Of a stretch of 31,676 nt of DNA, positions 14,383-31,201 are shown one piece after another; the stretch's first letter is position 1, and each line of letters begins with the position of its first letter. The position numbers were made by a program, and so were the translations under genes. A model generated the notes under the pieces. That model had not been told where the DNA came from. It saw only the letters and a list, made by a program, of their open reading frames with translations, and did no database searches. This DNA comes from a virus (Duplodnaviria > Caudoviricetes), in IMG/VR virus record IMGVR_UViG_3300044831_000021, positions 1 through 31,676 of that record, one strand, 5' to 3'.

Positions 14383-14781
14383 GTGATCGTGACGCAACAC
14401 ATGGACGGCGTGCGACAAGCAGCGCTTGAGCTGATGGTGGAATCTCTGGACGCGGAGGACGTGGAACGGCAGCTCGATAATCTCCGCGCGCAGGACGCCG
14501 ACGAAGAGACGCTGGCCAAAGTGATGCCTATGCGCACCATGGCGGACGGCTTTTACGACTTTGCCAGCTACATCCTGTGGATTCGCGGATTGATCGATTC
14601 GAACGTGGAGATCCCGATCATGGCGGACGAAGCCGAGGGCCTGCGTGCGCTGGAGGCCGCCCGCCAGGAATTTGAGCGCTCTCATCCTGCGTGCCCGCAA
14701 TGCGGCACGAGGCAATATTCCAGCACCGCCATGCGCTGCCGCAAGAGCAGATGCGGCATGGACTTCAGGAAGTCACGCTGA
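14383..14781 (+). CDS. Putative second tail assembly chaperone with C-terminal zinc ribbon
   Basis: GGAGG RBS and GTG start. CPQC...CRKSRC motif. Stop coupled (TGATG) to the tape measure gene. In frame with the upstream gene. Confidence 0.65.
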   Translation: MIVTQHMDGVRQAALELMVESLDAEDVERQLDNLRAQDADEETLAKVMPMRTMADGFYDFASYILWIRGLIDSNVEIPIMADEAEGLRALEAARQEFERSHPACPQCGTRQYSSTAMRCRKSRCGMDFRKSR

Positions 14782-17700
14782 TGGCGACGCCAGTACAAAT
14801 CACGGTCACGGTTGATTCGAACGGAGCTGTTACCGGCTTCCAGCAGATCTCGTCTTCAGGCGATGCCATGGGATCGAAGGTCGTTACTGCTTCTGAAGCG
14901 GCAGCTGCGGCTATTGCTAACCAGAGCAAGGCCACACTCACGGGCGCAGCGGCCGTTGCGGTCCTCACAGCCAAATGGGAAGAAGAGCAGAAGACAATCG
15001 CTGAAGTGAACGCGCGCATTAAAGAGAACATGGCGGCGATGGCGGCCACTACTGCAGCTACCCAGAAGTCGGCAGCCGTCATGTCGGGAAGTTGGGTACC
15101 CATGGTAAGAAGCGCGTCCACCGCGTTCATGGGCATGACCAATGAGCAGACGAAGGCCAACGTCGCCGGCAGGCTACTGGAACAGACACTGGGACTTCAG
15201 AATCGCGCACTCAACCAGGTTATTTCACGCAGCTCTATCCTTGGCCCAATCATGGCGGCAGCATTCCCTCTTGCGATCATTGATGCGGCAGTGCCCATGA
15301 TTATGAAGGTTGGCGAGGGCATCGCCAATGCAGCCCAGGCCGCAGGCGGCATGACCGAAGCGATGAAGCGGCTGAACGATGAGACGCTCCAGGCGAATAA
15401 AGGAACGTTCCTCAATCCCAAGAATATGGACCAGGCGCGTGAGCACCTCAATATCGTCAACAGCGAGATTTCAGCCAACGACAAGCTGAAAGACTCTTTG
15501 AACGCGCGTCTTCAGAAAATCTATGACGAATCAACGATAACGCAGCAAATCCTGGGCATCACTACTTACCGCCTCACCAAGGAATATCTCCACAACTCTG
15601 CAGTCGACAAGGGCGTGGACCTGCTCAAAGAACAGAATGCTCTCATGGAGAAGCAGGCCGAGCTAATAAGGCAGGCCGGCGTAGACCAGGCTTCTATATC
15701 CGCCGAGAGCAGCGGAATGCACGGTTTCGCCAAACTCAACTTTGACGAAGCGAATGCGATCAACAACCTGCGGAACGATAAGAGTCTCGACGATACGCAG
15801 CGCCAGGTGAAGGAATACGACGTCCACTACGAGTTCACCCAGAAACGGATCGAGCTGGAGCAGCAGGAGACGGATAGAACGATTGCGCTGCGCCACCAGG
15901 TGGAAGATGAAACGCTCCACGGAACAGCAAAGATATTAGCCGACGAACAGGCGGCCATTGATGCACTCGCGCGAGCGCAGGAGCGCAGCGGCGGCGACTA
16001 TGCGCAATTCCAGCAGCAAAAAGTGCTCTTACATCTGAAGGCGCTTAATCAGATATCGGCCCTCAACAATGCCGCGGACCAGCATGTGAAAGACCTGCAG
16101 GAGCAGGCGGGCGCCAGCGCACTCACTGGCGATGACAAAATCCGAGAGGAAGGGCAGAAGCTCAAAGAGGCAGAGGGCCGCAGATTGGCTGAAGGACTTG
16201 AGAACGATAAGCAATACAACTCTGCAATCGTGGCCATCAACCTAGCCACTAATAACAAGATCCAGGCCGAAGACCAGAAAACCTTCGACAAGCACGCGCA
16301 GATACTCGCGCGAACCAAAGAAATGCAGGACCGCGCGGCCGAGGATATGAAGACCGCGCAGGAAGATGCAGCCCTCGCAGGCGTTCCGGAGTGGCAGCGG
16401 GCCAGCGCGCAGATACAGATTGAGTTGAACCGGCGCGAGCGCGCAATCGAGGACCAAAAAATCAGAGAGCTGGCAGCTGAACATCTGACTGCGGATCAGA
16501 TTGTCGCCATCAACCAGGACGCGGATGCAAAGCGCCTTGACGCGATGGTTCAGGCCAACGTCCGTATGAGAGAGGAAAACAAACGCCTGACTGAGCAGCT
16601 CGGCTCGGACCTTCAGTCCGTGTTTGACGACATCACCAGCGGCAACATCGGCAAGCGCATTCTCGCAAACATGGAGAAGATGTTTTTTCAGATCGTCGCG
16701 CAGTGGATTCTCTCGCTGCAGATCATGAAGAGCGCTGCCGGCAGCATCTTTGGCTCAATCGTCTTTGGGCCTGGCTCAACCGGCGCTGGTGTGTTCGGCG
16801 GCGGCGGTGGAGGCGGCGGAGGATCGATACTGGGCACCCTCTTTGGTGGCGGCAGCAGCACTGGACCCAGCGCTGCCGGCAGTGGCGGTTTTACCGGAGG
16901 AGGCGGCGGAGGATCGATCCTGGGCAGCCTCTTTAGCGGCGGCGGGGCTGGTAGCAGCACTGGGCCCAGCGGCGCTGCGTTCCAGCCTGGCGGGATTTTC
17001 AGCGATCCATCCACGTTCGCCGGAGGCACTAGTGGTCTTACCGGCGCGATTGCCGGCACTAGCGCCACGTCCGGCAGCGGACTGCTGCCATCGGCGAGCA
17101 ACGCGCTCACCACGTCCACCATGGCGGACGCGCTGGGGGGTGGAGTCGGCGGCGTGGGTGCAGGCGCTTCCGCAGTTACTGGAGGCGCGAGCAAAGCAGG
17201 CGGTCTCTCTTCTTTCTTCAGCGCGGGGAATCTCACCAGCCTCGCGGGGTTGGGGCTCGGTGCTGTCGGGAGCGCGTTCGGAGGAAAGACCGGTCAGACG
17301 GGCGCGCTGTTGATGGGCTTGCTGATGAGCGGCAAGCTCGCACCTGTCTTGAGTTCTCTTTATGGCAGCATCGGCCTTGCCGCCACTGGAGCGCTGGTGG
17401 GCGGATTAACGGGAGGATTGATCGGCTTCGGTATCGGGAAAAACAGTGGCGGTCTGGTCGGATCGCTGGCTGGCGCTGGTTCTGGCGCTCTGACCGGCTT
17501 CCTTGTTGGCGGTCCCATAGGCGCGCTTGTAGGCGGCATAATCGGGCTGCTGGGAGGGATATTCGGCGGGATATTCGGCGGGGCCCAGCGTAAGAAACAA
17601 GCGAACGCGCTCGCAGATAACACGCTGCTGCCTGACATCGCGCAGATCGTGACCGGCTTTGATGGATTCCAAGTCGACAACAGCTCGGCGATCCAGCAGC

Positions 17701-18152
17701 TGGAGCAGCTGCGCACGGACTCACAGAAACAATTGAGCGCGCTCAAGAGCCAGGGCAAGGACGTTTTTAACCAAAAGGTGAATCCCGCGATTGATGCGGC
17801 TGAATCTCACATCCGCGACACGCAGGGCGAGCGAGACCGCCGCAGTGCGCAGATATTTGGTCCACCGCAGTTCGATACAGGCGGGATGTTCAGCGTGATG
17901 CGCGGCGGCAACGCAGGTCTGGCCGTTCTCCACGATGGCGAGTTTGTGATCAATCCCAAGGCAACAAAAAAGAACCTTCCGGCGCTGCAGTCGATGAATG
18001 CCGGAGGCTCGGGCGGTCACAGCATCGGCAATATGAATATCTACCCGCAAAGGTTGGACCGCGCGTACGTCATGAGCAACCAGTTCCGTAAAGATCTTCT
18101 CGACGCGCTGGATCGCGCCGGGAAAGAAGGCGAGCTGCGAGGGGGATTCTAA
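14781..18152 (+). CDS. Tail tape measure protein (about 1123 aa)
   Basis: Start MATPVQITVTVD, long Ala/Gln/Glu coiled coil, Gly-rich and hydrophobic glycine-zipper region, C-terminal FDTGG...AVLHDGEFVIN motif. Confidence 0.9.
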   Translation: MATPVQITVTVDSNGAVTGFQQISSSGDAMGSKVVTASEAAAAAIANQSKATLTGAAAVAVLTAKWEEEQKTIAEVNARIKENMAAMAATTAATQKSAAVMSGSWVPMVRSASTAFMGMTNEQTKANVAGRLLEQTLGLQNRALNQVISRSSILGPIMAAAFPLAIIDAAVPMIMKVGEGIANAAQAAGGMTEAMKRLNDETLQANKGTFLNPKNMDQAREHLNIVNSEISANDKLKDSLNARLQKIYDESTITQQILGITTYRLTKEYLHNSAVDKGVDLLKEQNALMEKQAELIRQAGVDQASISAESSGMHGFAKLNFDEANAINNLRNDKSLDDTQRQVKEYDVHYEFTQKRIELEQQETDRTIALRHQVEDETLHGTAKILADEQAAIDALARAQERSGGDYAQFQQQKVLLHLKALNQISALNNAADQHVKDLQEQAGASALTGDDKIREEGQKLKEAEGRRLAEGLENDKQYNSAIVAINLATNNKIQAEDQKTFDKHAQILARTKEMQDRAAEDMKTAQEDAALAGVPEWQRASAQIQIELNRRERAIEDQKIRELAAEHLTADQIVAINQDADAKRLDAMVQANVRMREENKRLTEQLGSDLQSVFDDITSGNIGKRILANMEKMFFQIVAQWILSLQIMKSAAGSIFGSIVFGPGSTGAGVFGGGGGGGGGSILGTLFGGGSSTGPSAAGSGGFTGGGGGGSILGSLFSGGGAGSSTGPSGAAFQPGGIFSDPSTFAGGTSGLTGAIAGTSATSGSGLLPSASNALTTSTMADALGGGVGGVGAGASAVTGGASKAGGLSSFFSAGNLTSLAGLGLGAVGSAFGGKTGQTGALLMGLLMSGKLAPVLSSLYGSIGLAATGALVGGLTGGLIGFGIGKNSGGLVGSLAGAGSGALTGFLVGGPIGALVGGIIGLLGGIFGGIFGGAQRKKQANALADNTLLPDIAQIVTGFDGFQVDNSSAIQQLEQLRTDSQKQLSALKSQGKDVFNQKVNPAIDAAESHIRDTQGERDRRSAQIFGPPQFDTGGMFSVMRGGNAGLAVLHDGEFVINPKATKKNLPALQSMNAGGSGGHSIGNMNIYPQRLDRAYVMSNQFRKDLLDALDRAGKEGELRGGF
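16809..16971 (+). repeat. Imperfect direct repeat inside the tape measure gene (GGGGSILGxLFxGG...SSTGPS x2)
   Basis: GGAGGCGGCGGAGGATCGAT-CTGGGCA-CCTCTTT...AGCAGCACTGG-CCCAGCG at 16809 and 16899, a 90-nt offset. Confidence 0.8.
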
Positions 18153-18154
18153 AG

Positions 18155-19438
18155 ATGAGTGAGCAGAACATCCTTAATCCGACTGCGGCGAGTCAAATGA
18201 ATCCAACTTACTCCATCCCGCACAAAGACCCGGCGCTCATGGCGAGCTGGCAGCCTCGCAGTGGAAAGCCTTACTCGCGTTACATGTTGGCGCGAGGGAT
18301 GGAGTTTCAGCTCCATTGGGACAAGGTCCAGTACTCGACCTATGAATCTCTCTTACAGTGGTTTCATCAGTACGAGCAGGACTTCTTTTCATATTTCAAT
18401 TTTCAGCGCAACCGCTATTTCAGCGGGCAGTTCCTCGCCGAGCCGCAATTCGAGGAAGTGGGGAATAACCAGTTCAACATCAACGCCACGTTCGTGGAGA
18501 TTCCGACGCTGCCGATGTTTCAATATCCCAACGCCTGGGGAGTGACATCCGTCTTTGTAGAAGAACGCAACGGCTTCGGCCAGGACCTGGTGAAGCTCAC
18601 GGGAACGTGGGATCGCGGCGATAAGAATTATGTTCTCTGGTCCGAGCAATTCGATAACGCGGCATGGACCAAGGCGAATGCCACGGTGACACCGAACGTG
18701 GTGACCGATCCTAACGGCGGTGCGACCGCAGATTCAGTGGCGTTTTCCGTCACCGGGGCCACCGCTCAGATCACGCAGGCCATCACGTCCCCGATTCCCG
18801 TGGGCGGCCAGCGCGTGACGTTAAGCATTTGGATGAAGGCCGCGTCTGGAGCTCCGTCTATCACACTTCAAGTGCTTGGCGCGACCGGTTCCACCAGCCA
18901 GGTATTCGTGCTGAGCACAGTCTGGCAGCGTTTCACGATCACCACGGTGCTGGCGGATAGTGAAACCGCTCTCACTTTTATGGTGCTCAGCCCAACGTCA
19001 AACGCGATTGCCTATCACCTGTGGGGCGCGCAGCATGAATTCGGTGGAGCTGGTGCGCCGAGCACTTACACGCAGACAGTTGGCAGCGCGGCCGTGTTGA
19101 TCGCCGCGCAGCAGAATTCTAACTACCACAACGGCTTCTCTTATTTCGATCCGGGCACAGTGATCACAGACGCAGCCGAGTGGAAGTACGTCGGCTACGG
19201 CTTCAGAGTGTGGGCACCGAAGAATGCGCAGATGGGAATCATGCAGGTCTTTGTCGACGGAGTATCCCAGGGAACAGTTGATCTTTACTCTGCGGCGCAC
19301 GCAGCCTCCTCTGTTCTCCTCACTGTCCAGAGCGTGGCGCTCGGAGAGCACCGCGTGAAACTCGCGCCCACCAACACAAAGAACGCGTCCAGCTCCGGCT
19401 TCATCGTGGCAGCGGACGCGATAGAGGTGATGAGGTAA
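18155..19438 (+). CDS. Distal-tail (Dit/gpM-like) protein with carbohydrate-binding-like domains
   Basis: First gene after the tape measure. N-terminal ~115 aa Dit-like (ends INATFVEI). Then a jelly-roll domain (VFVDG...VDLYS...LGEHRVKL...ADAIEV) interrupted by an LWSEQFDNAAWTK...LWGAQ module. Confidence 0.7.
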   Translation: MSEQNILNPTAASQMNPTYSIPHKDPALMASWQPRSGKPYSRYMLARGMEFQLHWDKVQYSTYESLLQWFHQYEQDFFSYFNFQRNRYFSGQFLAEPQFEEVGNNQFNINATFVEIPTLPMFQYPNAWGVTSVFVEERNGFGQDLVKLTGTWDRGDKNYVLWSEQFDNAAWTKANATVTPNVVTDPNGGATADSVAFSVTGATAQITQAITSPIPVGGQRVTLSIWMKAASGAPSITLQVLGATGSTSQVFVLSTVWQRFTITTVLADSETALTFMVLSPTSNAIAYHLWGAQHEFGGAGAPSTYTQTVGSAAVLIAAQQNSNYHNGFSYFDPGTVITDAAEWKYVGYGFRVWAPKNAQMGIMQVFVDGVSQGTVDLYSAAHAASSVLLTVQSVALGEHRVKLAPTNTKNASSSGFIVAADAIEVMR

Positions 19439-20149
19439 ATGCCGATCACACAGCCAGCGGGTACCGAAACCTTCCTCGCCAAGCAGAGCGGTATGTTCGT
19501 ACCCGTCGTGTTGCTGGACATTCAAACGCTCGATGGCACGCAGTACTTCTGGAGCGACTTTGAAGGCACTTATCCCACGAAGTTCACTAGCGCGAGCCAG
19601 TTCTACAACGGCTGGATCAAGAGCGGCTGCAACTTCACCTGCACGCGCGACATGACCAGCAACGCCGGCGATCTGCTGCTTCAGAATATTTCCGGCAACA
19701 CGATTGATCGCGAAGTGGCCGCAGCGCTGAAGAATCATGAGTTCGAGGGCGCCTACGCGGTCACGCGTCTATGGATTCCTCTGCTCGACGTTGCCATCCG
19801 TGAATTTCACTGCTCGCTCACCGAGCAAAACCCGAAGGAAGATGAGGCGGGGTTCCGCGAGCTGCAGCTGTTCGATCCTTCTCAATATGTGCTTGCTGGC
19901 GACGTGGAAGTGGAAACCTGCACCCTCCGATTCAAATCCGCGCAGTGTGGATCCACCGGATCGGCGGTCGCGTGTCCGAAAAGCTTTATCGCCTGCCAGG
20001 ATGTTACGCGCGCAGCCCAGGAGCGCTTCAACGCAATTCAGACTACCGTACCGAACACCGTGTTTACGCAGCCACTGGCAGGCAATGGTAAAAATCCTGA
20101 CGCTGGCGGTGGTACTCGTGGAGGAGTGAGAAAGCCGAATCTTTTTTAG
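19439..20149 (+). CDS. Minor tail protein, lambda gpL-like hub with putative Fe-S cysteines
   Basis: VVLLDI N-terminus and a C-terminal four-Cys cluster CTLRFKSAQCG...CPKSFIAC; synteny. Confidence 0.75.
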   Translation: MPITQPAGTETFLAKQSGMFVPVVLLDIQTLDGTQYFWSDFEGTYPTKFTSASQFYNGWIKSGCNFTCTRDMTSNAGDLLLQNISGNTIDREVAAALKNHEFEGAYAVTRLWIPLLDVAIREFHCSLTEQNPKEDEAGFRELQLFDPSQYVLAGDVEVETCTLRFKSAQCGSTGSAVACPKSFIACQDVTRAAQERFNAIQTTVPNTVFTQPLAGNGKNPDAGGGTRGGVRKPNLF

Positions 20150-20152
20150 ATC

Positions 20153-23050
20153 ATGCCGACCGTAACTCTCAATCCCGCAGACGTGGCTAATGCGCAGCTT
20201 GGCATCGATCTCCCCGTCATTTATGGATCTGTGCGCGGCCAGGGGAATGAGATTCTGAATCACGCGCTCCCCAACAAAAACCGCATCGTCATCCGCATTC
20301 TTTCCGAGGGCGAGATCGATGGCATTGATCGTCTTTTTATCAACGGCACGCGGGCGAACGAGTTCGATACAAACCTGATTCACTTCCATCCCGGTATAGA
20401 TGGCGAACTGGGCCACGGTCTCACTCCCGATTCAAACGGCGGGGATCAGCGCGTGGATAACTTCTGGTCATTGCTGCCTGGAAATTTCCAGCCCACCACG
20501 TTCAGCCGCAAAGCCTACATCATGCTCAATGTGCCTCCCGATCCGGCCGCGCCCAGCGCCACGCTTACAATCGCGGCCGACTATCGCGGATGCAAGGTGC
20601 GCCGGTTCGATTCCAGCGGCAATCAGACGGGATACGGGTTCAGCACCAACGGAGCGGAGCAGTGTCTTGACGTGATTCTGCGCACGATGCTGAAACCGGA
20701 GTGGAATCCAAGCGCGACCGCTGCCGCTGGCGGTGACCTCGTGACGGCCGAGAAGGCGCGCATCGACTGGCCTTCCTTCGCCGCTGCCGTGACCTGGTGC
20801 AACACTCTTCTGGCGAACGGACAGAAGCGCTTTGAATCTTCTATTGCCTTTGTGCAGCGCACAGGCGTGATCGACGCGCTGAAGCAGCTCTGCCTGATGT
20901 CTCAGCTCTACATCACGGAAGCGAACGGACGCATCTTTATTTGTGCTGACCAGCCGCGCGCGTCCAGCTTTATTCTCAAATCTGACCACATCGTCCCCGG
21001 CACGGCCTCATTCGACAAGATCAATTTGCACGGCGCGCCTAACCGCTTCATTGCTTCTTATAACGATCTCAATGCTCAGGGTATCGCCGATATAGATACC
21101 ATCGTGAACAGCGGGCTTCTACGCAGCGGCACTGGTTTGGTGACGGTCCAGACCAAGACGAATCATCCATTCCAGGTCGGGCAGACAATCCAGATTGTGC
21201 CCCCCACGGACGGCAGCACGCACGAAGGAGCGTTCGATGGATTGTGGCTCATCACGTCCCTGCCGGCAGCGAATAAATTCAACTTCGCGCAGGCCGGGAA
21301 TGCGAACTGGTTGCTGTGGTCAGAGGACGTTACCAACGCAGTGTGGACCAAGCCGAACGGCACCACCGTGGTTGGAAACAATCAGACCGATCCACTCGGC
21401 GGATCGACTGCAGACACTGTAACGTCAGCGATTACAGGGGGCTTCTGGGGATTATTCCAGGACTCTGGTTTAACGTCGACGTCGGGCAAACAATACACGC
21501 TCAGCGTGTGGCTTAAAGCGGCATCGAGCATCAGCATCAGGATACAAATTGAACGCCCGGGAGCTGATATCGAATTTCTGGACGTCACCGTCACGAACGT
21601 ATGGCAACGGTTCACCTTCACACATTCAGGAACATGGACAGGAAGCGCGGCGGTCGAAGTATTCATCGGTTCGGTCATTGCCAGCCAGGTCTTCTTCGTG
21701 TGGGGCGCTCAACTTGAAGATGGGACGGCCGCAACCACCTATCGCCAAACCACCAACGCGACCAACGGCGTAACCAGCGGCAACGGCACAGTGGGGACAC
21801 CCGAGAGCCGCTTCGCGGTCCGCGCACCCGTGGTTGATCATCAGCAGCACCAGAACGCGATCGGTCAGCGCGGCCTCAGCCTGACGCCGATCTTCCGCGT
21901 GGTGCCTCTCTCTCTGTCCATGGGCAACAACACGGATGAGCGGGTGAAGCGCATCCTCAATTTTCTTAGCGCTCGCAATCTTGGCATCCCAACGACACCT
22001 TATGTTGCGCCGTGGTCCGGTACCGTAACCTGCTTCATGGATGCCGTGGACATCAACAACAAGGCGCTGATCTCGCAACTGCCGGGAGACATCATCAGCG
22101 TCGACGCCACGGTGAGTGAGGAGTACCAGGCGGACTACGAGATCATAAAGGCAGTCTATGTTGTGCCGGCAGCGGATGGTAGCAGCAACAGCGGATCGAG
22201 CGGCCAGTCTAACCGCGCGACGATTGAACTCACTCTTCTGCAATATCTGGCGGCCGCATTTTCTGACACCAGTTCCGTCACGCTCAGCCTCCGAGCGTCG
22301 ATCACATCTGGTCTGGCTCCGCTGGCGCAGGTGGACTCGCTGGGCGTGCAGCGCCTGGCGTCTACGAAGCAGAACAATCCCACGAACGTGGCGAGCTACT
22401 TCACAGGCGGCAATCCGCTTAGCCAGAGCGGCAGTTCCTCCACAATTCTAGTGAGCAGCTTCACCATTCAGTACGGCTTTGGCCAGGTCAGCTATAACAG
22501 CGGCTCCGTCAATCCCGGCTCTCTCGGTACGTGGACGGTCTACACGCGCGATCCGCAATTCACGGGAGGCGCTGTCACCTATTTTGCTGTGCTTAGCACC
22601 AGTCAGTCGACGCTGACATCATTCGATGATGTGGTGTGCGTCGGCACAATTGTATTGACGGGTGGCGGCGGTGCGCATGGAACGGGCGGCGGCGGCGGCG
22701 CATGCTTCAGCGGCAACGTAAAAGTGAGAGTGCCAGGCGGCCTCGCCCTCCTGGAAGGACTTGATCCTGTGTGTGTGATCACGACAGAGTTCGGCCCGCG
22801 TATGGCTGATGTGATCGTGACCGAGTACTCCGGCGAGATGCGCGATATGGGAGACCGTCAACTCGTGACGCCTGGTCATCTTATTCAGGCTGGTCCGGGA
22901 TGGCTGCCGGCGTCGATGCGATGGGAACGCGTGGTTTGCTTCGAAGGCAAGGTCTACACGCTCCGCGTTCACACTGAGATCGACGAGGAGCGCCACTTCA
23001 TTCTGGAAGACGGCACCAAGGCGCACAACATCAGTCCACCGCCGCAATAG
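20153..23050 (+). CDS. Tail tip / host-specificity protein (gpJ-like) with FCCH-like and CBM-like insertions and a C-terminal Hint domain
   Basis: LPVIYGSVR, ILSEGEIDGI, RGCKV, RIDWPSF and NRFIASYND gpJ-type motifs. Poly-Gly linker then CF...TPGH...VYTL...AHN. Confidence 0.85.
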   Translation: MPTVTLNPADVANAQLGIDLPVIYGSVRGQGNEILNHALPNKNRIVIRILSEGEIDGIDRLFINGTRANEFDTNLIHFHPGIDGELGHGLTPDSNGGDQRVDNFWSLLPGNFQPTTFSRKAYIMLNVPPDPAAPSATLTIAADYRGCKVRRFDSSGNQTGYGFSTNGAEQCLDVILRTMLKPEWNPSATAAAGGDLVTAEKARIDWPSFAAAVTWCNTLLANGQKRFESSIAFVQRTGVIDALKQLCLMSQLYITEANGRIFICADQPRASSFILKSDHIVPGTASFDKINLHGAPNRFIASYNDLNAQGIADIDTIVNSGLLRSGTGLVTVQTKTNHPFQVGQTIQIVPPTDGSTHEGAFDGLWLITSLPAANKFNFAQAGNANWLLWSEDVTNAVWTKPNGTTVVGNNQTDPLGGSTADTVTSAITGGFWGLFQDSGLTSTSGKQYTLSVWLKAASSISIRIQIERPGADIEFLDVTVTNVWQRFTFTHSGTWTGSAAVEVFIGSVIASQVFFVWGAQLEDGTAATTYRQTTNATNGVTSGNGTVGTPESRFAVRAPVVDHQQHQNAIGQRGLSLTPIFRVVPLSLSMGNNTDERVKRILNFLSARNLGIPTTPYVAPWSGTVTCFMDAVDINNKALISQLPGDIISVDATVSEEYQADYEIIKAVYVVPAADGSSNSGSSGQSNRATIELTLLQYLAAAFSDTSSVTLSLRASITSGLAPLAQVDSLGVQRLASTKQNNPTNVASYFTGGNPLSQSGSSSTILVSSFTIQYGFGQVSYNSGSVNPGSLGTWTVYTRDPQFTGGAVTYFAVLSTSQSTLTSFDDVVCVGTIVLTGGGGAHGTGGGGGACFSGNVKVRVPGGLALLEGLDPVCVITTEFGPRMADVIVTEYSGEMRDMGDRQLVTPGHLIQAGPGWLPASMRWERVVCFEGKVYTLRVHTEIDEERHFILEDGTKAHNISPPPQ
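22703..23029 (+). other. Intein-like Hint domain (109 aa), predicted non-splicing
   Basis: Block A CFSGNVKV, block B VTPGHLI (TxxH), block F VYTLRV, block G HFILEDGTKAHN. The +1 residue is Ile. Confidence 0.85.
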
Positions 23051-23066: not shown

Positions 23067-23465
23067 ATGAAACTCAAGAAGGACGTCGCGATCACACTGG
23101 GCAGCGGAGTGACCGTCATTCATTCTGCCGAGCTGCTGGACATCCGGCACACGGCCGATGGCGCTTCTGTCGCGAGCGCCGCCTGCTGCGGCAAGGTGGG
23201 CGCTATTATCACCTGTTCTGGGTGCGCTGGTTCCGGCTGTCCGGCCTGCGGAGGCAAGGGCTCTATAAAGGATGAGGACACCAGGTCTGACCACGCCTTC
23301 TATGACATCGCCGGCATGAGTGAGGCTGACTTGATGGCCGAGATTCAGGGGCACGTCGACCGCGTCGCCAACCACCACGCTGGAGCACATAGAGCCAGGG
23401 AGTTTATGGCATCCCTGACGGCAGCCGATCCGGTCGCTACTGACGCTCCGGGCAAGGTGGGCTGA
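23067..23465 (+). CDS. Terminal prophage gene with DnaJ-type CxxCxGxG zinc-finger motifs
   Basis: GAGGGGAG RBS. CSGCAGSG and CPACGGKG motifs plus a CC pair. Confidence 0.75.
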   Translation: MKLKKDVAITLGSGVTVIHSAELLDIRHTADGASVASAACCGKVGAIITCSGCAGSGCPACGGKGSIKDEDTRSDHAFYDIAGMSEADLMAEIQGHVDRVANHHAGAHRAREFMASLTAADPVATDAPGKVG

Positions 23466-23490: not shown

Positions 23491-23553
23491 ACTGCAGGCT
23501 AAATCGCCCTTACTGCAACTCAATTCGCCCATTACTGCAGCCGACCGCGCCCA
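23491..23553. repeat. Putative transposase-binding sites of the prophage right end
   Basis: ACTGCA-N7-TCGCCC at 23491 and 23512 and ACTGCA-N7-GCGCCC at 23534 (21-22 bp period). The last unit ends in CA (TG on the minus strand). Confidence 0.75.
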
Positions 23554-23573
23554 GCCCCATGTGCGATTCCGGT

Positions 23574-23673: not shown

Positions 23674-23749
23674 GGCCAGGTAGCTCAGTCGGTAGAGCGC
23701 AGCCCTGAAAAGGCTGGCGTCGGCGGTTCGATTCCGTCCCTGGCCACCA
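23674..23749 (+). tRNA. tRNA-Phe (GAA)
   Basis: 76-nt cloverleaf: acceptor GGCCAGG/CCTGGCC, D arm GCTC/GAGC, anticodon arm CAGCC-CTGAAAA-GGCTG, T loop TTCGATT, encoded CCA. Confidence 0.98.
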
Positions 23750-23927: not shown

Positions 23928-23974
23928 CTTCCAGACGCGGGCTGTTTTCCGCGTAATTGATGGGACCGAACTTG

Positions 23975-24298
23975 ATGCGTAAGATTCAGAGATATCTGCG
24001 TTGGGCGTTGCTGGGGCTGATTTTCGTGCTCACGGCTTCGGTCAACCTGTTCTGCGTCGTTATTGACAACGATGGCGATGGCGATCCTACGACGGGAGTA
24101 ACCATTGAGTTCACTATTGTTCAGGGCAAGAGGATACAGGTTGTAACCAACCCAATCCACTTGCATTCCACGCACGCCTCTAAGGTCTTTCGCGCAGGAT
24201 TTTTCTACAAGCAGCGAATGGAGCGTTCGGATGACCTGAACACTAATTCCAGCTATTTTAATCTGACAGTCCTCCTCGCCTCTCCGCTTCGCTGCTAG
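23975..24298 (+). CDS. Small membrane-anchored protein with C-x3-DxDGD-x-T-x-VTIEF and C-terminal PLRC (paralog 1)
   Basis: Basic N-terminus and TM helix; similar to 25187..25504. Start may be 23960 or 23975. Confidence 0.75.
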   Translation: MRKIQRYLRWALLGLIFVLTASVNLFCVVIDNDGDGDPTTGVTIEFTIVQGKRIQVVTNPIHLHSTHASKVFRAGFFYKQRMERSDDLNTNSSYFNLTVLLASPLRC

Positions 24299-24757: not shown

Positions 24758-25186
24758 GCATTCCTGCTTGATCGTGCTGCTGTTCTTTACCTGATCAAAG
24801 ATCCGCTTACATCAAGGATCTGCCCTCGCGCCTTCCTATTCGAGTAATAGGCTGGGCGGCTGCCGGCATTTGTTCCTCTAATTTCTTTCAAGAATCGAAA
24901 TTGTTTGGCGGCGTTCGTCTGCCGGACTACGCGCTGATTGAGTCCTTGCCAGCCCTTCTGTCGCCCCCGCGCTGATGGATTCCAATACTCATACCCCAGC
25001 TTTTTAGATCGTGCAACCTTCCGCCTTTTCCCAACGGCCCGACCATATTTCAAGCGTGGCTTCCTGATAGTCCGTCGCACCCCCAGAAAATTAAAAAGTC
25101 TAATTAGCGGTTAAGACCGCCTTAATGTCCATTGAGCAGAATGACTCATCGCCACAGTGCTCTGCGGCGACCCTTGTTTACAAATT

Positions 25187-25504
25187 ATGAACTCGTTTTT
25201 CACAAAATGTTTTCGTAGCGCCGTGCTGGCCATGATGCTCCTGCTTTCAGGGCTGGCAAGCATGGTCTGCTTCTCATACGACGCAGATGGCGACGAGAGC
25301 ACTCCTCCAGTGACGATCGAGTTCAATGGTGTTGTTCCCAGCAAGAAAAGCATTCAGATTCCAAAACCACATTCGACCGCAGCCGCGCACCACGTTCGCG
25401 ATGCACAGCCGGCTTCTCTCGCCCTGTTGGTTTCCACGGACTTCTCGTCCGCTCCCTTGCTTGACAAAGGATCACCGCAACTCCTCGTTCCACTCAGGAC
25501 CTAA
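25187..25504 (+). CDS. Small membrane-anchored protein with C-x3-DxDGD-x-T-x-VTIEF and C-terminal PLRT (paralog 2)
   Basis: ATG within ORF 25157..25504. TM helix then CFSYDADGDESTPPVTIEF; ends LLVPLRT. Confidence 0.78.
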   Translation: MNSFFTKCFRSAVLAMMLLLSGLASMVCFSYDADGDESTPPVTIEFNGVVPSKKSIQIPKPHSTAAAHHVRDAQPASLALLVSTDFSSAPLLDKGSPQLLVPLRT

Positions 25505-25821
25505 TCCAAGGCCCCAATCCCTCTTTTTTCGTCGTAAACAGTCCAGGCATTCAAGCACATTGCGCTCGCTAATGAGCGCGATGATTAGATCAAGCTCACC
25601 CAGTTTCGTTATGGAGCTTGGACCGCCTGAACTACTGCACAGACGTTAACACCAGCGTTCACGACGAAAACCTCCACGCATAACTTCGATCACTCTACCG
25701 GCATTTTTCGTCCAGTGAGGGATCACACCTACACCTATTAAGAACACCTGTCTGTGGTGCTTTCGGCCCGAAATGTTGGCCGAGTACCAGCAGACCAATG
25801 ACGACTCTGAGGAGATCAACA

Positions 25822-28437
25822 ATGAAACCGTCTTCCGGGACTCTGGCTATTATGCGCATTTTTGTATGGGTAATCGCAATCACCGTGGCCCTTGGATATT
25901 TTGCCCATGTACGCGCGCAGAGCAGCAGGTTGGCTGAACAGGGGATGGTAATTCCTCTGCGTCCGCTTGCTCCTTTATCGACTGTCCCAGTTCCTCCGGT
26001 ATTCGGGATGGAAGGGATTCTTGCCGATAAGACAGCGGCGATTGAGTTAGGCAAAGCTTTGTTTTGGGACATGCAGGCCGGCAGTGACGACATTCAGGCC
26101 TGCGCCAGCTGCCACTTCAACGCGGGAGCAGACAGCCGCGCCATCAACCAGTTGAATCCTGGGCAGGCAGGTGGCGACAACACTTTCCAGATGGGCGTTT
26201 CCGCTAATGGCTCATTAGGACCAAACCACCACTACAGTGCAGGCACGGCAGGCGCGGGTTTTGGCGGCTACCATGACGGAGATTTCCCGTTTCGCAAGGT
26301 GGCCAACGTCGAGGACCGTTTCAGCGTAATTTCCGACGTCAATGATGTCTCTGGTTCCCAGGGGCAATTCGGCCTGACCAATGACAAGATCAAAGTAGAT
26401 GTTCAAAGAAGCTCAAATCTTGATAGCAATACCCGGTCGATCCAGGACCACGAAGATGCCGATCCCGGACAGAATGAGCAGTTCACCTACGGAGTAGATA
26501 CTCCGCACCTGCCCACCGGCAGAAAGGGTCCTGCAAACAGTTCCGGCAAGAATAGGGGCGCGACACAATCAAGCGGCAGCAAAGGGAATCTCATCAGGGG
26601 TTCCGTTACCAACACGAACAGCGTGGAATTGACGACTTCGGTCATTGACCCGGTCTTCTCTTATCCCAATCCTGAAGACTCAACCAAACGGGTTAACGTT
26701 CGCAGAGTAACCGGCCGCAACACGCCGAGCGCAGTGAACGCAGTTTTCAATTTCCGCAATTTCTGGGATGGCCGCGCACAGAACGTTTGCAATGGCGCGA
26801 ACCCCTTTGGCGCTCGCGATAATTCCTTGCACCTGCTGGTCTTAGGCACTGACGGCAAGCTGGGCCCGGCCCACGTGGGTATGGCGAACTCAGCACTGTG
26901 CTCGCAATCGTTGGGTCCGATCCTCAGCAGCGTTGAAATGTCAGCCGATGACAGGAATTTTCACCAGGTGGGCAAGAAACTTCTGGCCCGCACGCCATTG
27001 GGCACGCAGGCGGTCGATCCTACTGACAGCGTTCTGGGAACTCTGTCAAATGCCCCTGGCAAGGGCCTTAAGACCTCTTACTCGACACTGATCCAGCAGG
27101 CGTTTCTGCCGGAATGGTGGCAGTTCTCGCGTCACATCTGCACCGCAGCTGACGGCAGCACGGTAACCAACGTTGACCCGGCGGCATTTGAAACCTGCCC
27201 CTCTGGCACGGACGATTACAGCCAGATGGAGTACAACTTCTCGCTTTTCTGGGGCGTAGCAATCCAGATGTATGAGAGCACACTGATCGCCGATCAGACG
27301 CCTTTTGACAAGTACATGGAACAGCAGAAGACGTACACGCTGATAGGCGACAACCACAATCAGAACTACACCATTCAACTGGCGCCCGGGATTCAGCCCT
27401 ATTCGGTATCAGTGATCGCACTCGATCCGCTGGCTGATTTCACCGACCAGGAAATGGCATATGCCTTTGACTATGGCGATGGACGCGTCATGGGCGTGGG
27501 GCTGGATCAGGGATTCATTGATTACGCTACCGGCAAGCTGACGGTGCAATTCGGAATGCCGCCAGTCAGCACGTTCCCCATCAAGATCAGCTACTCCGTG
27601 GGCGCCACGCCAATGACCACGGGCCAGTTACGCGGTCTGCTCGTGTTCCAGACGAAAGGGCGTTGCGTTAACTGCCATGGCGGACCGGAGCTTTCCAACG
27701 CGTCCGTAGGCACGGTGAGCACCGTTGGCCCGGCGGAACGCATGATCATGGCCGACATGCAGGTCCGGGTTTATGACACCGGCTACTACCACATCGGCGT
27801 ACGGCCCACCGCGGAAGATGGCGGACTGGCTGGTACAGATCCGGTAGCAGGAAAGTCGTTATCACAATCGGAATATCTGAGAGAGCGCGTTTGCGACGAT
27901 CCCTCCGAGGCAATCATGATCCCTGGACGCCCGGGAGACGGCATCTCCATGGCGCCCCTGAATTGCGGCGACGAAACGGCGCGGGGCGGCTTCTTCAAAG
28001 CGCCGCAACTGCGCAACGTGGCACTGACCGCTCCTTATTTCCACAATGGCAGCCAGTTAACGCTGGAACAAGTGGTTGAGTTCTACGACCGAGGCGGCGA
28101 CTTCAATACCTTTGGTGAAGAACATCAATACATGGATGCTGACATCGACAACCTGGGGCTTACTCTTCAGGACAAGACCGATCTGGTCGATTTCATGCGC
28201 AACGGCCTAACCGACTCGCGCACGGTAAACCAATCAGCGCCTTTTGATCACCCACAACTGCTTACTCCCAACGGCCACCCTCAAGGAGCCAACGGGTACC
28301 CAGTTCAACCTGACCCGAAACATCCGGGGCAGGCCACATCGCAGTTAATGGAAGTTCCAGCGGTCGGGAAAAATGGCGGCAAACCGCTGCCGACGTTCCT
28401 GGAAAACATGCTGGGGGTGACCAATGGCTCCAACTAA
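25822..28437 (+). CDS. Large secreted di-haem cytochrome c peroxidase / MauG-family protein
   Basis: GAGGAG RBS and signal peptide. LGKALFWD, CASCH (26101-26115), RNTPS...NFWDGRA, CVNCH (27664-27678), FKAPQLRNVALTAPYFHNG. Confidence 0.92.
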   Translation: MKPSSGTLAIMRIFVWVIAITVALGYFAHVRAQSSRLAEQGMVIPLRPLAPLSTVPVPPVFGMEGILADKTAAIELGKALFWDMQAGSDDIQACASCHFNAGADSRAINQLNPGQAGGDNTFQMGVSANGSLGPNHHYSAGTAGAGFGGYHDGDFPFRKVANVEDRFSVISDVNDVSGSQGQFGLTNDKIKVDVQRSSNLDSNTRSIQDHEDADPGQNEQFTYGVDTPHLPTGRKGPANSSGKNRGATQSSGSKGNLIRGSVTNTNSVELTTSVIDPVFSYPNPEDSTKRVNVRRVTGRNTPSAVNAVFNFRNFWDGRAQNVCNGANPFGARDNSLHLLVLGTDGKLGPAHVGMANSALCSQSLGPILSSVEMSADDRNFHQVGKKLLARTPLGTQAVDPTDSVLGTLSNAPGKGLKTSYSTLIQQAFLPEWWQFSRHICTAADGSTVTNVDPAAFETCPSGTDDYSQMEYNFSLFWGVAIQMYESTLIADQTPFDKYMEQQKTYTLIGDNHNQNYTIQLAPGIQPYSVSVIALDPLADFTDQEMAYAFDYGDGRVMGVGLDQGFIDYATGKLTVQFGMPPVSTFPIKISYSVGATPMTTGQLRGLLVFQTKGRCVNCHGGPELSNASVGTVSTVGPAERMIMADMQVRVYDTGYYHIGVRPTAEDGGLAGTDPVAGKSLSQSEYLRERVCDDPSEAIMIPGRPGDGISMAPLNCGDETARGGFFKAPQLRNVALTAPYFHNGSQLTLEQVVEFYDRGGDFNTFGEEHQYMDADIDNLGLTLQDKTDLVDFMRNGLTDSRTVNQSAPFDHPQLLTPNGHPQGANGYPVQPDPKHPGQATSQLMEVPAVGKNGGKPLPTFLENMLGVTNGSN

Positions 28438-28540
28438 TTTCCGGCACAACGCGGTTCGACGAGAGTTAAACGATTTCCCCCTATCAGCACGGCAGAGCAC
28501 GTTAACGAAATTGAAGGACGACGACGGAAGGAGCTTCAAA

Positions 28541-31201
28541 ATGACGGGTTTCGAGCAAACAAAAAATATTCTGAGGGTAGCGGGTGTTCTGCTGTTGCTG
28601 ATGATGGTGATGGGCGCGAGCATGTCAGCCCAGAGCCTGAATCCGGTCCCCTTTCCAACGCCGGCAGTGGTTCCTCCGCCTCCGGCCATCATGCCAGCCT
28701 ACCAAAGCATCCCTGCTGGCGTCTTTCCCGCGGGGCAGATGCAATATGCCTCTCTGGACGCAAGTCCTGGGCTGTGCAACAAGGATGACAATCCGGCCCC
28801 CACGCCTGATAATCCGCCGCTGCCTGCTGGCTGCAAGATGACGGGTGGCTGGATGCAGGTTAACGATGAGTTGATCCGCATCCCGGCAGGCACCATCGTC
28901 GTGATGCCGAACACCTTCCTTACCTGGGAAGAGGTGTTCGAATTCAACCCCAATGTTCACCAAGCCGATGCCGTGAAGGAAACCGGACTGGCGATGGCTG
29001 ATGTGGTCAGGTTCCCCGGCACGTACGAAGTCGGAATCGACGCCAATATCGTCAATGGACAGCACATTGCGGGCATCGTCCGCATCGCCCAGGATCCCCT
29101 CAACAGTATCTCTGGCTTCATTGAGAAGATCGACTATGCCAACGGCGTGCTCTATGTCGCCGGACAGAGAATCCAGCTCAACGATCCGAAGATCACGATC
29201 TCCATTCCCAACCCCGATGGCTCACCAACGGGTCAGGTCGTTACCAAGGGCCGTTACAGCGCCGGACAGTCGCCTGATATCCGCATGCAGGTAGACCAGG
29301 GCAATCCGACGGTACGCACCGCGATGGGCTATCCCATGTGTGTACCGGTGGTAGCTCCCGGAACCTACAACAATGAACTGGGCATTCCGGGTGTTCCTGA
29401 CCCGTACGTTCTGGTTGCTCCTCCTGGCTCGACCCTTACGGGCATGGACGATCCCCAGTGTCCGGAGATCAACCGGCCGCGCGATCCCAACGGTCTCGGA
29501 CTTCTACCAACCTTCATCATGAACGGGCCGGGCGATGCACCGACCCCTGACAACCCATTTCCCCAGGATCCGTACGCAGAGATGCCCTACGAAGTGGGCG
29601 ATTTCGTGGATGTCATTGCCACGCAGGAAGTCGATGCTCTTGGCCCGTACATGACGGCGACCGAAGTTGTAGGCAACGTGGGTAGCTATACCGCCCCGGG
29701 CGTCGATCCCGCTTACATCGTGGTGGAAACCACGATCATGGGCACGTCAGGCATGCCTGATCCTCTGTTCCCGCAGGAAGCCGGCGTAAGAACCAGGGTG
29801 GAAGGTTTCAGCACTGACTCGACGCGCAACATAGATGTTTCCGCGATCGATATGGACTGCAACGGCAACGTGACTTTCCGCGAACCCTCCTGGGTTGCGA
29901 ACTTCACCGTTGAGCCAGGACTACCCGGAATCGGCAAAAAAGGACGCTGGCGCGTACGTTTCCCGCAGGGCGGTAATTTCGAGCCTCCCACGCAGAACAT
30001 TGGCGCACGCATCAGCGGCGGCGTGCTGGGTAAGAACAAGAGCGGTCTGGATTTCGATGAATACCAGTTGCCCACCGGAGAGTTTCTCTATCCGGAACTT
30101 CTGGTGCCGGGCAATCCTCCGCCTCGCAACAATTTCCGCGACTTCCAGTATCTGTCCAACGGCTCAGGTCCGCTGCCTTTGATTGGTAGTGTCTTTGAAA
30201 GTAACCAGCTCCAGTTGGGCCTGGCTCCGTCGAATTTCTATCCCAACCAAAATTCCATCCAACTCAGTCCGTTCCCGGATGACACGCTGCCTCCGTTGAC
30301 GTGCACACCTGGCACCTTTACTTCGGTTGCCCGGCCCGTCTTCACTTCAGCGCCGAATCCGCCGTTTGCGGGTGTAACCGTCACCCTGGACGGAACGGCC
30401 AGCACTCCGCCGACCGGTCCGTTTTCCTGGGCGCAGATCATCAATCCTGGCGATCCGGTCGTGACGATTCTGAACGCCAACAAAGCCAAAGCTACCTTCG
30501 TAGCTCCCGTAGTGGCAGGCCCGCAGAACCTGGCCTTCCAACTGATTGTGGGCGGCGACGCATTTACGCCGGCCTCAGCTCCTGCAACCGTGCTGGTGCC
30601 GATCATTGTACCGCCGCCAGGCACGCCTCCAACCGTTTCCGCCAGCTCGTCTCCGGCTAACAATGTTGCCAGCGGCGCTCTTGTAACGCTCACTGCCAGC
30701 GCGGTTGATCCTTCGAGTGGAGCTCTCACCTTTAACTGGACGGCTCCGGCTGGAATCGTCCTTACACCGGCAGCTCCTGATGGTTCGGTGCAAACCTTCA
30801 TCGCACCCATCGTTCCGCAGCTCACGGCACCACAGTCATTCACCTTCTCCGTAACGGCGACAAGCGCCGCCAGCGGTCTGACCAGCGCTCCGGTGAGCGT
30901 AACCGTGATTGTCAATCCGCAGGCTGACATCATTCAGGTCACCGTGGCGACTTACAGGACGAAGAAAGCGCGTCTTGTGGTGACCGCCACCGACTTCACT
31001 CCGGGTGTAGAGATAACTTGCACCTTGGACATCATCAACCAGGCAACAGGGTTGCCGTACTCGGCCGTCATGGGACCGAGCATTCCGTCGGCGCCGGGTG
31101 TGTTCCAGGTGTTCTTCACCAACATACCGCCGCCGAACGTAATCACTCTCACCTCGACCGGAGGTGGAAGCTCAACCACTGGCATAACAACCCTGAGGTA
31201 A
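28541..31201 (+). CDS. Secreted Pro-rich protein with C-terminal PKD/Ig-like domains (about 886 aa)
   Basis: AAGGAG RBS before ATG 28541 and a signal peptide. Two PKD-like repeats (VTLDGTAS...FSWAQ...ATFVAP; VTLTASAVD...FNWTA...TFIAP). Confidence 0.85.
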   Translation: MTGFEQTKNILRVAGVLLLLMMVMGASMSAQSLNPVPFPTPAVVPPPPAIMPAYQSIPAGVFPAGQMQYASLDASPGLCNKDDNPAPTPDNPPLPAGCKMTGGWMQVNDELIRIPAGTIVVMPNTFLTWEEVFEFNPNVHQADAVKETGLAMADVVRFPGTYEVGIDANIVNGQHIAGIVRIAQDPLNSISGFIEKIDYANGVLYVAGQRIQLNDPKITISIPNPDGSPTGQVVTKGRYSAGQSPDIRMQVDQGNPTVRTAMGYPMCVPVVAPGTYNNELGIPGVPDPYVLVAPPGSTLTGMDDPQCPEINRPRDPNGLGLLPTFIMNGPGDAPTPDNPFPQDPYAEMPYEVGDFVDVIATQEVDALGPYMTATEVVGNVGSYTAPGVDPAYIVVETTIMGTSGMPDPLFPQEAGVRTRVEGFSTDSTRNIDVSAIDMDCNGNVTFREPSWVANFTVEPGLPGIGKKGRWRVRFPQGGNFEPPTQNIGARISGGVLGKNKSGLDFDEYQLPTGEFLYPELLVPGNPPPRNNFRDFQYLSNGSGPLPLIGSVFESNQLQLGLAPSNFYPNQNSIQLSPFPDDTLPPLTCTPGTFTSVARPVFTSAPNPPFAGVTVTLDGTASTPPTGPFSWAQIINPGDPVVTILNANKAKATFVAPVVAGPQNLAFQLIVGGDAFTPASAPATVLVPIIVPPPGTPPTVSASSSPANNVASGALVTLTASAVDPSSGALTFNWTAPAGIVLTPAAPDGSVQTFIAPIVPQLTAPQSFTFSVTATSAASGLTSAPVSVTVIVNPQADIIQVTVATYRTKKARLVVTATDFTPGVEITCTLDIINQATGLPYSAVMGPSIPSAPGVFQVFFTNIPPPNVITLTSTGGGSSTTGITTLR

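What the first reader, a model, noticed from the sequence alone, without database searches (positions are those of the whole stretch)
22660..23050. Tail-tip protein ends in a minimal, non-splicing Hint (intein-like) domain behind a poly-Gly linker
Seen: residues 851-959 of the gpJ-like protein carry all four Hint blocks (C1-F, TPGH, VYTL, terminal HN). They are preceded by GGGGAHGTGGGGGA and followed by only ISPPPQ, with no endonuclease. Established: splicing needs Cys/Ser/Thr at +1, and bacterial intein-like and Hedgehog Hint domains instead autocleave, Hedgehog by transferring the N-fragment to a nucleophile through a thioester. Inference: the tip protein self-matures at GGGA|C, either shedding a folding chaperone or covalently ligating its C-terminus to a small molecule or another virion protein. 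That would be a self-encoded virion modification system.
Basis: partly seen in the sequence, partly recalled or inferred. Interest (0 to 1): 0.85.

Follow-up and report, generated by a model that had tools for sequence, protein, structure and literature searches.

The report
Optional self-excising Hint on tail tip
The tail-tip protein of an uncultured phage, likely of acidobacteria, ends in an intein-like (Hint) domain that about half of its relatives lack; the domain likely cuts itself out and may re-attach its six-residue tail, so it is likely an optional self-removing cassette rather than a system that ligates outside molecules to the virion.

Summary
Observation confirmed. Residues 851-959 of ORF 20153-23050 model as a 109-aa Hint domain (Z 13.3, rmsd 1.9 A to C. 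thermocellum BIL) with C851, T906/H909, H948, H958-N959. Behind the same shoulder-like domain and Gly run, 52 of 113 distinct tails carry a Hint, 57 a short peptide, 4 a head domain, interspersed on the hub tree. So the Hint is dispensable, and no sterol/adduct-binding region exists. 'Non-splicing' is unproven: type-A BILs can splice without a +1 nucleophile (PMC4031507). All 58 C-exteins hold Lys (23), Ser at +2 (27, including this one) or other Ser/Thr/Cys (8). Likely mechanism: excision at A850|C851 and N959, partly re-ligating ISPPPQ, giving a Hint-less-like tip. New here: shoulder, Gly tail and a downstream Cys-Cys gene travel together on siphophage hubs and podophage needle-slot proteins. 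This scan found Hint caps on tail proteins before on other DNA (160 notes). Ten literature searches found no description. No biochemistry yet.

The parts
20153..23050 (+). Tail-tip hub / central tail protein (T5 pb3, lambda gpJ-like), 965 aa
   Evidence: follows a 1153-aa tape-measure-like ORF (14691-18152) and two tip genes (inferred from position; no family hit for the tape measure)
21302..21763 (+). Inserted carbohydrate-binding-module-like domain (residues 384-537)
   Evidence: NCBIfam NF048003 E 2.5e-20; CBM22/CBM4 Foldseek hits
22385..22651 (+). Conserved ~90-aa beta domain before the Gly run, resembling the shoulder domain of trimeric receptor-binding proteins
   Evidence: VIA Z 6.1 A-1(L) fibre, 5.4 Mtd, 5.2 SPP1 gp22, 5.0 p2 RBP (middling Z, a lead only); coordinates
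22658..22702 (+). Gly-rich segment TGGGGAHGTGGGGGA, present in Hint-bearing and Hint-less alleles
22703..23029 (+). Minimal Hint domain C851-N959 (type-A BIL anatomy): C851, T906, H909, H948, H958, N959
23030..23047 (+). Six-residue C-extein ISPPPQ; Ile at +1, Ser961 at +2 (Ser at +2 in 27 of 58 Hint rows, one lineage)
23067..23465 (+). Small partner gene ('CC', 132 aa) with invariant C40, C41, H104 and near-invariant H19 (likely a metal site); co-travels with the shoulder + Gly tail, with or without Hint
23491..23559 (+). Three 21-22-bp spaced direct repeats ending in CA: likely right end of a Mu-like transposable prophage
   Evidence: Mu gp27- and gpF-like genes

Best explanation
The C-terminal 115 residues are a Hint domain plus a six-residue tail on a phage tail-tip protein; the Hint likely excises itself (thioester at A850|C851, Asn959 cyclisation) and likely re-attaches ISPPPQ to part of the molecules, which would leave a tip ending in the Gly run with or without that peptide, like the Hint-less alleles. 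Shown: fold, intact catalytic residues, optional presence, a nucleophile in every C-extein, co-travel with the shoulder domain and the CC gene. Inferred step 1: C851 with T906/H909 forms the thioester. Inferred step 2: H948/H958 drive Asn959 cyclisation. Inferred step 3: the thioester is captured by the tail itself, through the freed Ile960 amine or first through Ser961 (Lys in most other lineages), or is hydrolysed. Inferred step 4: the uncovered Gly tail of the trimer is the working end, possibly the dock of the CC protein. The cassette is an optional self-removing passenger or maturation timer. It is likely kept intact because an uncleaved 12-kDa cap would spoil the tip.
For: Fold. Residues: TxxH in 35 of 35 and block-F His in 31 of 35 CF-type Hints. 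No Hint-profile hit lacking Cys1/His-Asn among the 63 other proteins (best E 0.35, not terminal). Selection: L022 vs L023 dN 0.08, dS 1.09. Optional: 52 Hint, 57 short tail (1 truncated), 4 head among 113 distinct tails. 15 changes among 57 hub rows against a shuffled mean of 19.2, with 16 of 300 shuffles at or below 15; Hint rows rejected as one clade among 24 close rows, p-AU 3e-57. Hint-less ends are real: the CC gene follows directly in 19 of 20 such loci, mostly within 30 nt. C-terminal chemistry is kept although the C-extein is only 3-8 aa, and all 58 C-exteins hold Lys (23), Ser+2 (27) or other Ser/Thr/Cys (8); Lys and Ser+2 never co-occur. Three have Ser at +1. C-exteins and Hint-less ends are both Pro-rich and acid-poor against control termini (P 17.5% and 9.5% vs 5.4%; D+E 1.2% and 3.7% vs 8.8%). 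Three Hint-less tails end Gly-run-HN-XX, like deletion relics (2 lineages, shuffle P>=2 of 0.05), and sit near Hint-bearing shoulders. Precedent: type-A BIL splicing by aminolysis (PMC4031507) and BIL2 isopeptide ligation (PMC8616854).
Against: No cleavage or splicing is shown. In BILs cleavage products dominate (PMC4031507, PMC7664689), and one review says type-A BILs cannot ligate (PMC7765530). His-Asn in all Hint rows is partly built into my classifier. The Ser+2 rows form one lineage, so 27 rows are one event, and Ser961 may be structural. The composition tests treat related sequences as independent. The predicted spliced tail (median 21 aa) is still shorter than Hint-less tails (median 26; cleaved 16). 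The relic signal is marginal. Block F has Thr where inteins usually have Asp (recalled). A neutral passenger without an endonuclease should be easy to lose, yet six Hint sequence clusters sit at this site and Hint co-diverges with the shoulder (Mantel r 0.78), which hints at an unidentified benefit.
Confidence: 0.55

Rival explanations
1. Cleavage only: the Hint is a shed cap or timer. The A850|C851 thioester is simply hydrolysed or thiolysed, and His-Asn and the tail are kept for structural reasons.
For: BILs give mainly cleaved products. Ile at +1. The cleavage product keeps the conserved shoulder and ~16-residue Gly run. Self-cleaving C-terminal domains are known on tail fibres (S74; PMC7824862).
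Against: Does not explain why His-Asn, block-F His and a side-chain nucleophile are kept in 3-8-aa tails across six Hint clusters. A chaperone role is not essential, since 56 intact alleles lack the Hint.
Confidence: 0.25
2. Trans-ligase: the thioester is transferred to another virion protein (a neighbouring subunit, or the co-encoded Cys-Cys protein) or to a small molecule.
For: The Gly-rich end resembles an activated ubiquitin-like C-terminus, and BIL2 conjugates ubl4 to other proteins without ATP (PMC8616854). The CC gene lies 16 nt downstream in the window and follows 12 of 14 Hint-bearing loci.
Against: CC also follows 19 of 20 Hint-less loci, so it does not need the Hint. There is no adduct-recognition region after Asn. 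Presence of the Hint is nearly random on the hub tree, which does not fit an essential modification.
Confidence: 0.12
3. The Hint stays attached as a structural or receptor-binding head, in the slot where some relatives carry a lectin-like domain.
For: It occupies the position behind the shoulder-like domain where 4 of 113 tails carry a head domain.
Against: The invariant residues are the catalytic ones, not a variable binding surface, and they are kept in lineages only 16-27% identical to this Hint.
Confidence: 0.06

Closest known systems
Type-A bacterial intein-like (BIL) domain, e.g. Clostridium thermocellum BIL, PDB 2LWY
   Same: Best structural match (Z 13.3, rmsd 1.9, 107 aligned); Cys1, TxxH, His-Asn, no +1 nucleophile, no endonuclease; variable host region
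   Different: Smaller (109 vs 138 aa); 15% identity; no PT-HINT hit; C-extein is a 6-aa peptide, not a domain; host is a phage tail-tip protein
Tetrahymena BUBL1 BIL2 (PDB 6Y75/6TMM; PMC8616854)
   Same: Hint without +1 nucleophile (Z 12.5) behind a Gly-rich end; side-chain nucleophile of the C-flank used for ligation
   Different: No ubiquitin-like flanks. This C-extein has no Lys; its lineage has Ser at +2, although 23 of 58 relatives have Lys
Vint (PF14623; PDB 8R2C) and Hedgehog Hog domain (PDB 1AT0)
   Same: Hint fold (Z 12.9 and 10.8); C-terminal position; weak Vint profile hit
   Different: No VWA/Vwaint, no sterol-recognition or other C-terminal extension; His-Asn retained
Intramolecular chaperone peptidase S74 of tail fibres (PMC7824862)
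   Same: C-terminal, self-removing domain on a trimeric tail protein (functional analogy)
   Different: Unrelated fold and chemistry (Ser/Lys); here about half the alleles do without
T5 pb3 / DT57C baseplate hub / lambda gpJ
   Same: Hub fold of the N-terminal part (E 4e-10 to 5e-8) and gene position
   Different: Carries a CBM-like insert and ends in a shoulder-like domain, Gly run and Hint instead of FNIII domains plus a spike or fibre

Membership tests
Hint superfamily | Hint beta-horseshoe fold | tested here: met
   (top 30 VIA rows all Hint-fold)
Hint superfamily | Cys/Ser1 and block-B TxxH | tested here: met
   C851, T906, H909; invariant; 35 of 35 CF-type rows
Class 1 intein | Cys/Ser/Thr at +1 | tested here: not met
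   Ile960; Ser at +1 in only 3 of 58 relatives
Class 1 intein | Insertion in a conserved site of an essential enzyme, often with a homing endonuclease | tested here: not met
   109 aa, no insert; sits in a variable Gly tail
Type-A BIL | C-terminal His-Asn without +1 nucleophile, no endonuclease | tested here: met
   H958-N959-I960; definition from PMC4031507 and PMC7765530 passages
Type-A BIL | Located in a hypervariable region of a non-conserved protein | tested here: met
Type-A BIL | Family profile match (PT-HINT / Hint_2) | tested here: inconclusive
   Window protein: no PT-HINT or Hint_2 hit at E<=0.1; relatives P0028, P0033, P0035 pass the Hint_2 cut-off; L038 PT-HINT E 0.3
Type-A BIL | N- and C-terminal autocleavage with some splicing | not testable with these tools
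   needs expression and mass spectrometry
Hedgehog Hog domain | Sterol-recognition region after the Hint | tested here: not met
   only ISPPPQ follows; 3-8 aa in all 58 relatives
Vint proteins | VWA + Vwaint before the Hint; score above the Pfam cut-off | tested here: not met
   18 bits vs 27, positions 2-108 of 166, no VWA; definition in PMC2362128
BIL2-like Gly-Hint-Lys module | Lys in the C-flank as nucleophile | tested here: not met
   no Lys in ISPPPQ; Ser+2 lineage
gpJ / pb3-type tail-tip hub | Hub fold and position after tape measure and distal tail genes | tested here: met
   (low TM-scores because domains are oriented differently in the model; per-domain alignment not obtained)
RBP shoulder domain (p2 RBP, SPP1 gp22, TssK) | Shoulder beta-sandwich fold, trimer | tested here: inconclusive
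   Z 4.4-6.1, rmsd 3.3-4.1; oligomer not modelled

The most novel reading that the evidence does not exclude
A portable two-gene tip module (shoulder + Gly tail + Hint, and a Cys-Cys/His protein), shared by sipho- and podoviruses, uses an ATP-free Hint ligase to cap or crosslink the trimeric tail tip. The Gly tail is transferred to a side-chain nucleophile of the tiny C-extein (Lys isopeptide in most lineages; a displaced Ser at +2 here, a splicing route I found described in none of the papers searched) or to the partner protein, and the covalent cap matters for infection.
Probability: 0.18. Interest if true: 0.82.

Novelty: new variant of a known kind. Interest (0 to 1): 0.52.

Why it matters
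If it self-processes as predicted, it adds intein chemistry to phage tail maturation, next to S74 chaperones. It also supplies a natural matched set: the same tip with Hint, without Hint, or with a head domain, and with Lys, Ser+2 or Ser+1 C-flanks. That set can test directly whether BIL domains do anything for their hosts, which is a long-open question. At 102-111 residues these are very small Hint domains, and a +2-Ser or Lys-directed ligation would be of use in protein engineering. Against a high score: the domain type is known, it is dispensable, no activity is shown, no cultured phage carries it, and this scan has noted Hint caps on tail proteins many times.

Tried and rejected
Sequence search of the PDB with the Hint and with alignments A2 and A3: nothing significant. 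ESM Atlas for the shoulder (best 0.77) and the CC protein (TM<=0.45): no usable hit. Cultured phages (50,697 records): no match for residues 738-965 or CC; the hub matched only through its CBM part. 401 genomes of the order of G001: 6 with a match. 401 of the class searched with the CC profile: 2; the new one (L058) also follows shoulder + Hint. Viral scans with three single CC proteins returned only known contigs and one spurious locus, L054. Split-gene or truncation explanation for Hint-less forms: rejected. A second Hint in neighbouring tail genes: none in the window or in loci L001-L045 with my profile, though that profile also missed some divergent tail Hints (L018, L035, L038, L045). Hint as a free cassette swapped at the Gly run among close relatives: not supported; there the whole shoulder + Hint end is exchanged (13-row Hint clade, 16-row Hint-less clade; Mantel r 0.78). 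Sortase reading of LP(T/A/S)R tails: rejected, order reversed and not conserved. dN/dS was saturated in 20 of 21 pairs. Binding of CC and the family's full range therefore remain open. Model coordinates could not be read, so active-site distances (e.g. Ser961 to the scissile bond) were not measured.
Full report
1. Observation. ORF 20153-23050 encodes 965 aa. The Gly run T836-A850 is followed by C851 (22703), T906/H909, H948 and H958-N959, then ISPPPQ and a stop. Profiles see it only weakly: Pfam Vint E 0.0026, 18 bits against a cut-off of 27, positions 2-108 of 166. An AlphaFold model of residues 738-965, built on a 32-row alignment, has pLDDT 82.7. All 9 Foldseek hits at E<=0.001 are Hint proteins. 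The wide VIA search gives Hint folds in its top 30 rows: C. thermocellum BIL 2lwy Z 13.3, rmsd 1.9 A, 107 aligned; Vint 8r2c 12.9; BIL2 6tmm 12.5; Hedgehog 1at0 10.8. The full-length model (pLDDT 75, pTM 0.49) matches DT57C/T5 pb3, lambda J, Chi and T1 tail-tip hubs (E 4e-10 to 7e-7; TM 0.15-0.30). It carries a CBM-like insert at residues 384-537.

2. Context. The window is a linear virus record estimated 41% complete. Head genes include Mu gp27-like and gpF-like proteins and a protease-capsid fusion. Relatives lie in Terriglobales / 'Ca. Angelobacter' MAGs, so an acidobacterial host is inferred. Behind the last phage gene, three direct repeats ending in CA (23491-23559) are conserved to varying degree in the 12 sequences aligned, and are followed by different host DNA. 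This reads as the right end of a Mu-like transposable prophage (inference).

3. The family. Searches with residues 720-965 and 1-400 gave 70 and 77 proteins, 107 distinct. With the window, 45 end in a Hint, 47 in a Gly-rich tail and 16 otherwise (the rule misfiles at least P0061 and P0089). The constant element is a ~90-aa beta domain (745-833) plus a Gly run. That domain resembles shoulder domains of trimeric receptor-binding proteins (Z 6.1 A-1(L) fibre, 5.4 Mtd, 5.2 SPP1 gp22, 5.0 p2 RBP; middling scores, a lead only). Over proteins and loci, 141 sequences carry it, with 113 distinct downstream tails: 52 Hint, 57 short peptide (one truncated, P0072), 4 head domain. Hint-less ends are genuine, because the same small gene follows directly. 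On a hub tree of 68 rows, the 28 Hint and 29 Gly-tail rows need 15 changes, against a shuffled mean of 19.2 (16 of 300 shuffles at or below 15). Among 24 close rows the Hint rows are rejected as one clade (p-AU 3e-57). On the shoulder tree the window's 13-row clade is all Hint and a 16-row clade is all Hint-less (only 90 columns, many open forks). Shoulder and Hint identities correlate among 35 CF-type rows (Mantel r 0.78). So close relatives exchange the whole tip end, and deeper lineages gained or lost the Hint repeatedly. Six BLAST clusters of Hint occur at this site, some only 16-27% identical to the window's.

4. The module is portable. The shoulder + Gly tail (+/- Hint) also ends other siphophage hubs (L029; L043 and L045, central tail fibre J). 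It also ends podophage proteins encoded behind a head-closure Hc3 gene (L035, L038, L039, L041), in L035 ahead of an acetyltransferase. That slot is the P22 gp26 needle position (recalled). A small gene with invariant C40, C41, H104 and near-invariant H19 (23 rows) follows in 31 of 34 distinct loci with at least 300 nt downstream: 19 of 20 Hint-less and 12 of 14 Hint-bearing (17 sequences seeded the profile). The one locus found from this gene's side also has shoulder + Hint upstream (L058). The two Hint loci without it (L049, L051) are Ser+1 alleles, and one head-bearing locus (L008) has a different next gene. The partner tracks the headless shoulder, not the Hint. A tip cap or chaperone role is inferred; binding was not tested.

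5. Is the Hint active? TxxH is present in 35 of 35 and block-F His in 31 of 35 CF-type rows. No degenerate Hint appeared among the 63 non-Hint proteins. One later fragment, P0111, is frameshifted inside the Hint (error or decay). In the only unsaturated DNA pair of 21, the Hint has dN 0.08 and dS 1.09, like the shoulder (0.03 and 0.42). Activity is therefore likely but not shown.

6. Which reaction? A +1 Cys/Ser/Thr occurs in 3 of 58 Hint rows (59 rows, one spurious minus-strand row dropped), so canonical splicing is excluded here. But PMC4031507 (passages) states that type-A BILs have His-Asn and can splice through attack of the freed C-fragment amine, with cleavage dominating. PMC7664689 (passages) says cleavage predominates, and PMC7765530 (passages) says they cannot ligate. 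PMC8616854 (passages) describes BIL2 forming a Lys isopeptide without ATP. Earlier notes of this scan pointed to a conserved Lys in such tails, which I tested. Of 58 C-exteins, 23 hold Lys, 27 hold Ser at +2, none both, and the other 8 hold Ser, Thr or Cys. Sister CF-type Hints have Lys at +2 (AKEPT, VKIG, NKVL, GKVY), where the window's lineage has Ser. The Ser rows form one clade, so this is one event. C-exteins and Hint-less ends are both Pro-rich and acid-poor against 138 control termini (sequences not independent). Three of 56 Hint-less tails (2 lineages) end Gly-run-HN-XX, like in-frame deletion relics (P>=2 = 0.05). Tail lengths are 16 (cleaved), 21 (spliced) and 26 (Hint-less) by median. 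If only N-terminal shedding mattered, His-Asn and a nucleophile-bearing micro-tail would not be needed. I therefore favour excision at both ends with partial re-ligation (0.55) over pure cleavage (0.25), trans-ligation (0.12) and a retained head (0.06). Hedgehog-type small-molecule ligation lacks its recognition region. An essential chaperone role is contradicted by the Hint-less alleles.

7. Comparison. It works like a type-A BIL and meets the sequence features tested; the profile match is inconclusive and activity is untested. It is not a class 1 intein, a Hog domain or a Vint protein (PMC2362128, passages), and it lacks the Lys of the BIL2-like variant. The functional analogue on tails is the S74 chaperone (PMC7824862, passages).

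8. Novelty. Ten searches gave no listed paper on Hint domains in tail-tip proteins, judged from listings. Passages read in PMC3556154, PMC5259590, PMC5526547 and PMC8790156 place phage Hints in terminase, ribonucleotide reductase or helicase contexts. The tail-fibre atlas PMC12143355 has no occurrence of 'intein' or 'Hint'. Amitai 2003, Dassa 2004 and Aranko 2013 were seen only as cited by those reviews. Subscription papers and all supplements were not seen and could hold annotations. BFVD holds many viral Hint proteins, including unnamed caudoviral and giant-virus ones. No cultured phage matched. Within this scan the general kind is recurrent: 160 notes in at least 132 genomes hold the words, but none matched this sequence. 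These are unchecked AI notes, not support. What this window adds is the shoulder-Gly-(Hint)-CC module shared across tail types, the near 1:1 Hint / Hint-less allele set, and the Lys-to-Ser+2 switch. Verdict: new variant of a known kind, interest 0.52.

Noticed in passing
window 23491-23559; L001, L002, L004, L011, L013, L020, L022, L023: Three 21-22-bp spaced direct repeats ending in CA, followed by different host DNA in each locus: likely the right end of a family of Mu-like transposable siphophages of Terriglobales.
   Followed up: partly
window 23067-23465: Unannotated CC protein family (C40, C41, H104, H19). Some members carry a CxxC...CxxC zinc-finger insert (window, L007, L009), some are tandem duplicates (L050, L052); no Pfam, PHROG, PDB or Atlas assignment.
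   Followed up: partly
L035:3840-4841, L038:5594-7642, L039-L042: The same shoulder-Gly(-Hint) end plus CC gene sits in podophages behind head-closure Hc3, in the tail-needle slot.
   Followed up: partly
L049, L051, P0041: Alleles with Ser at +1, i.e. potentially canonical mini-inteins at the same Gly site; L049 and L051 lack the CC gene.
   Followed up: no
P0047, P0078, L036:4328-7351: Hint-less tails ending GGGGSHNYP and GGGGYGHNQN, resembling in-frame deletions of the Hint core.
   Followed up: partly
P0111: Frameshift inside the Hint fuses it to the CC protein; sequencing error or decayed prophage.
   Followed up: no
window 5338-7851: 837-aa protease-capsid fusion with a long N-terminal part (PF25209 at 527-831; phrog_29592, phrog_133).
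   Followed up: no
window 18155-19438 and 21302-21763: Both the distal-tail-like protein and the hub carry related CBM-like inserts (BLAST cross-hits; NF048003): probable glycan-binding modules, which would leave the Gly tip another job.
   Followed up: no
window 19439-20149: The gpL-like gene before the hub also ends in a short Gly-rich, basic tail (DAGGGTRGGVRKPNLF), without a Hint.
   Followed up: no
window 14383-14781: Small ORF with a C-terminal zinc ribbon between the putative tail chaperone and tape-measure genes (weak).
   Followed up: no
window 23674-23749, 25798-31201: Host flank: tRNA-Phe, a di-haem cytochrome c peroxidase-like gene and a PKD-domain gene, plus two similar short ORFs at 23957-24298 and 25157-25504.
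   Followed up: no
BFVD rows: Several Hint-domain proteins of giant viruses (Cafeteria roenbergensis virus, Satyrvirus, Tupanvirus), some annotated with IPT/TIG or DUF2341 domains; no paper found.
   Followed up: partly
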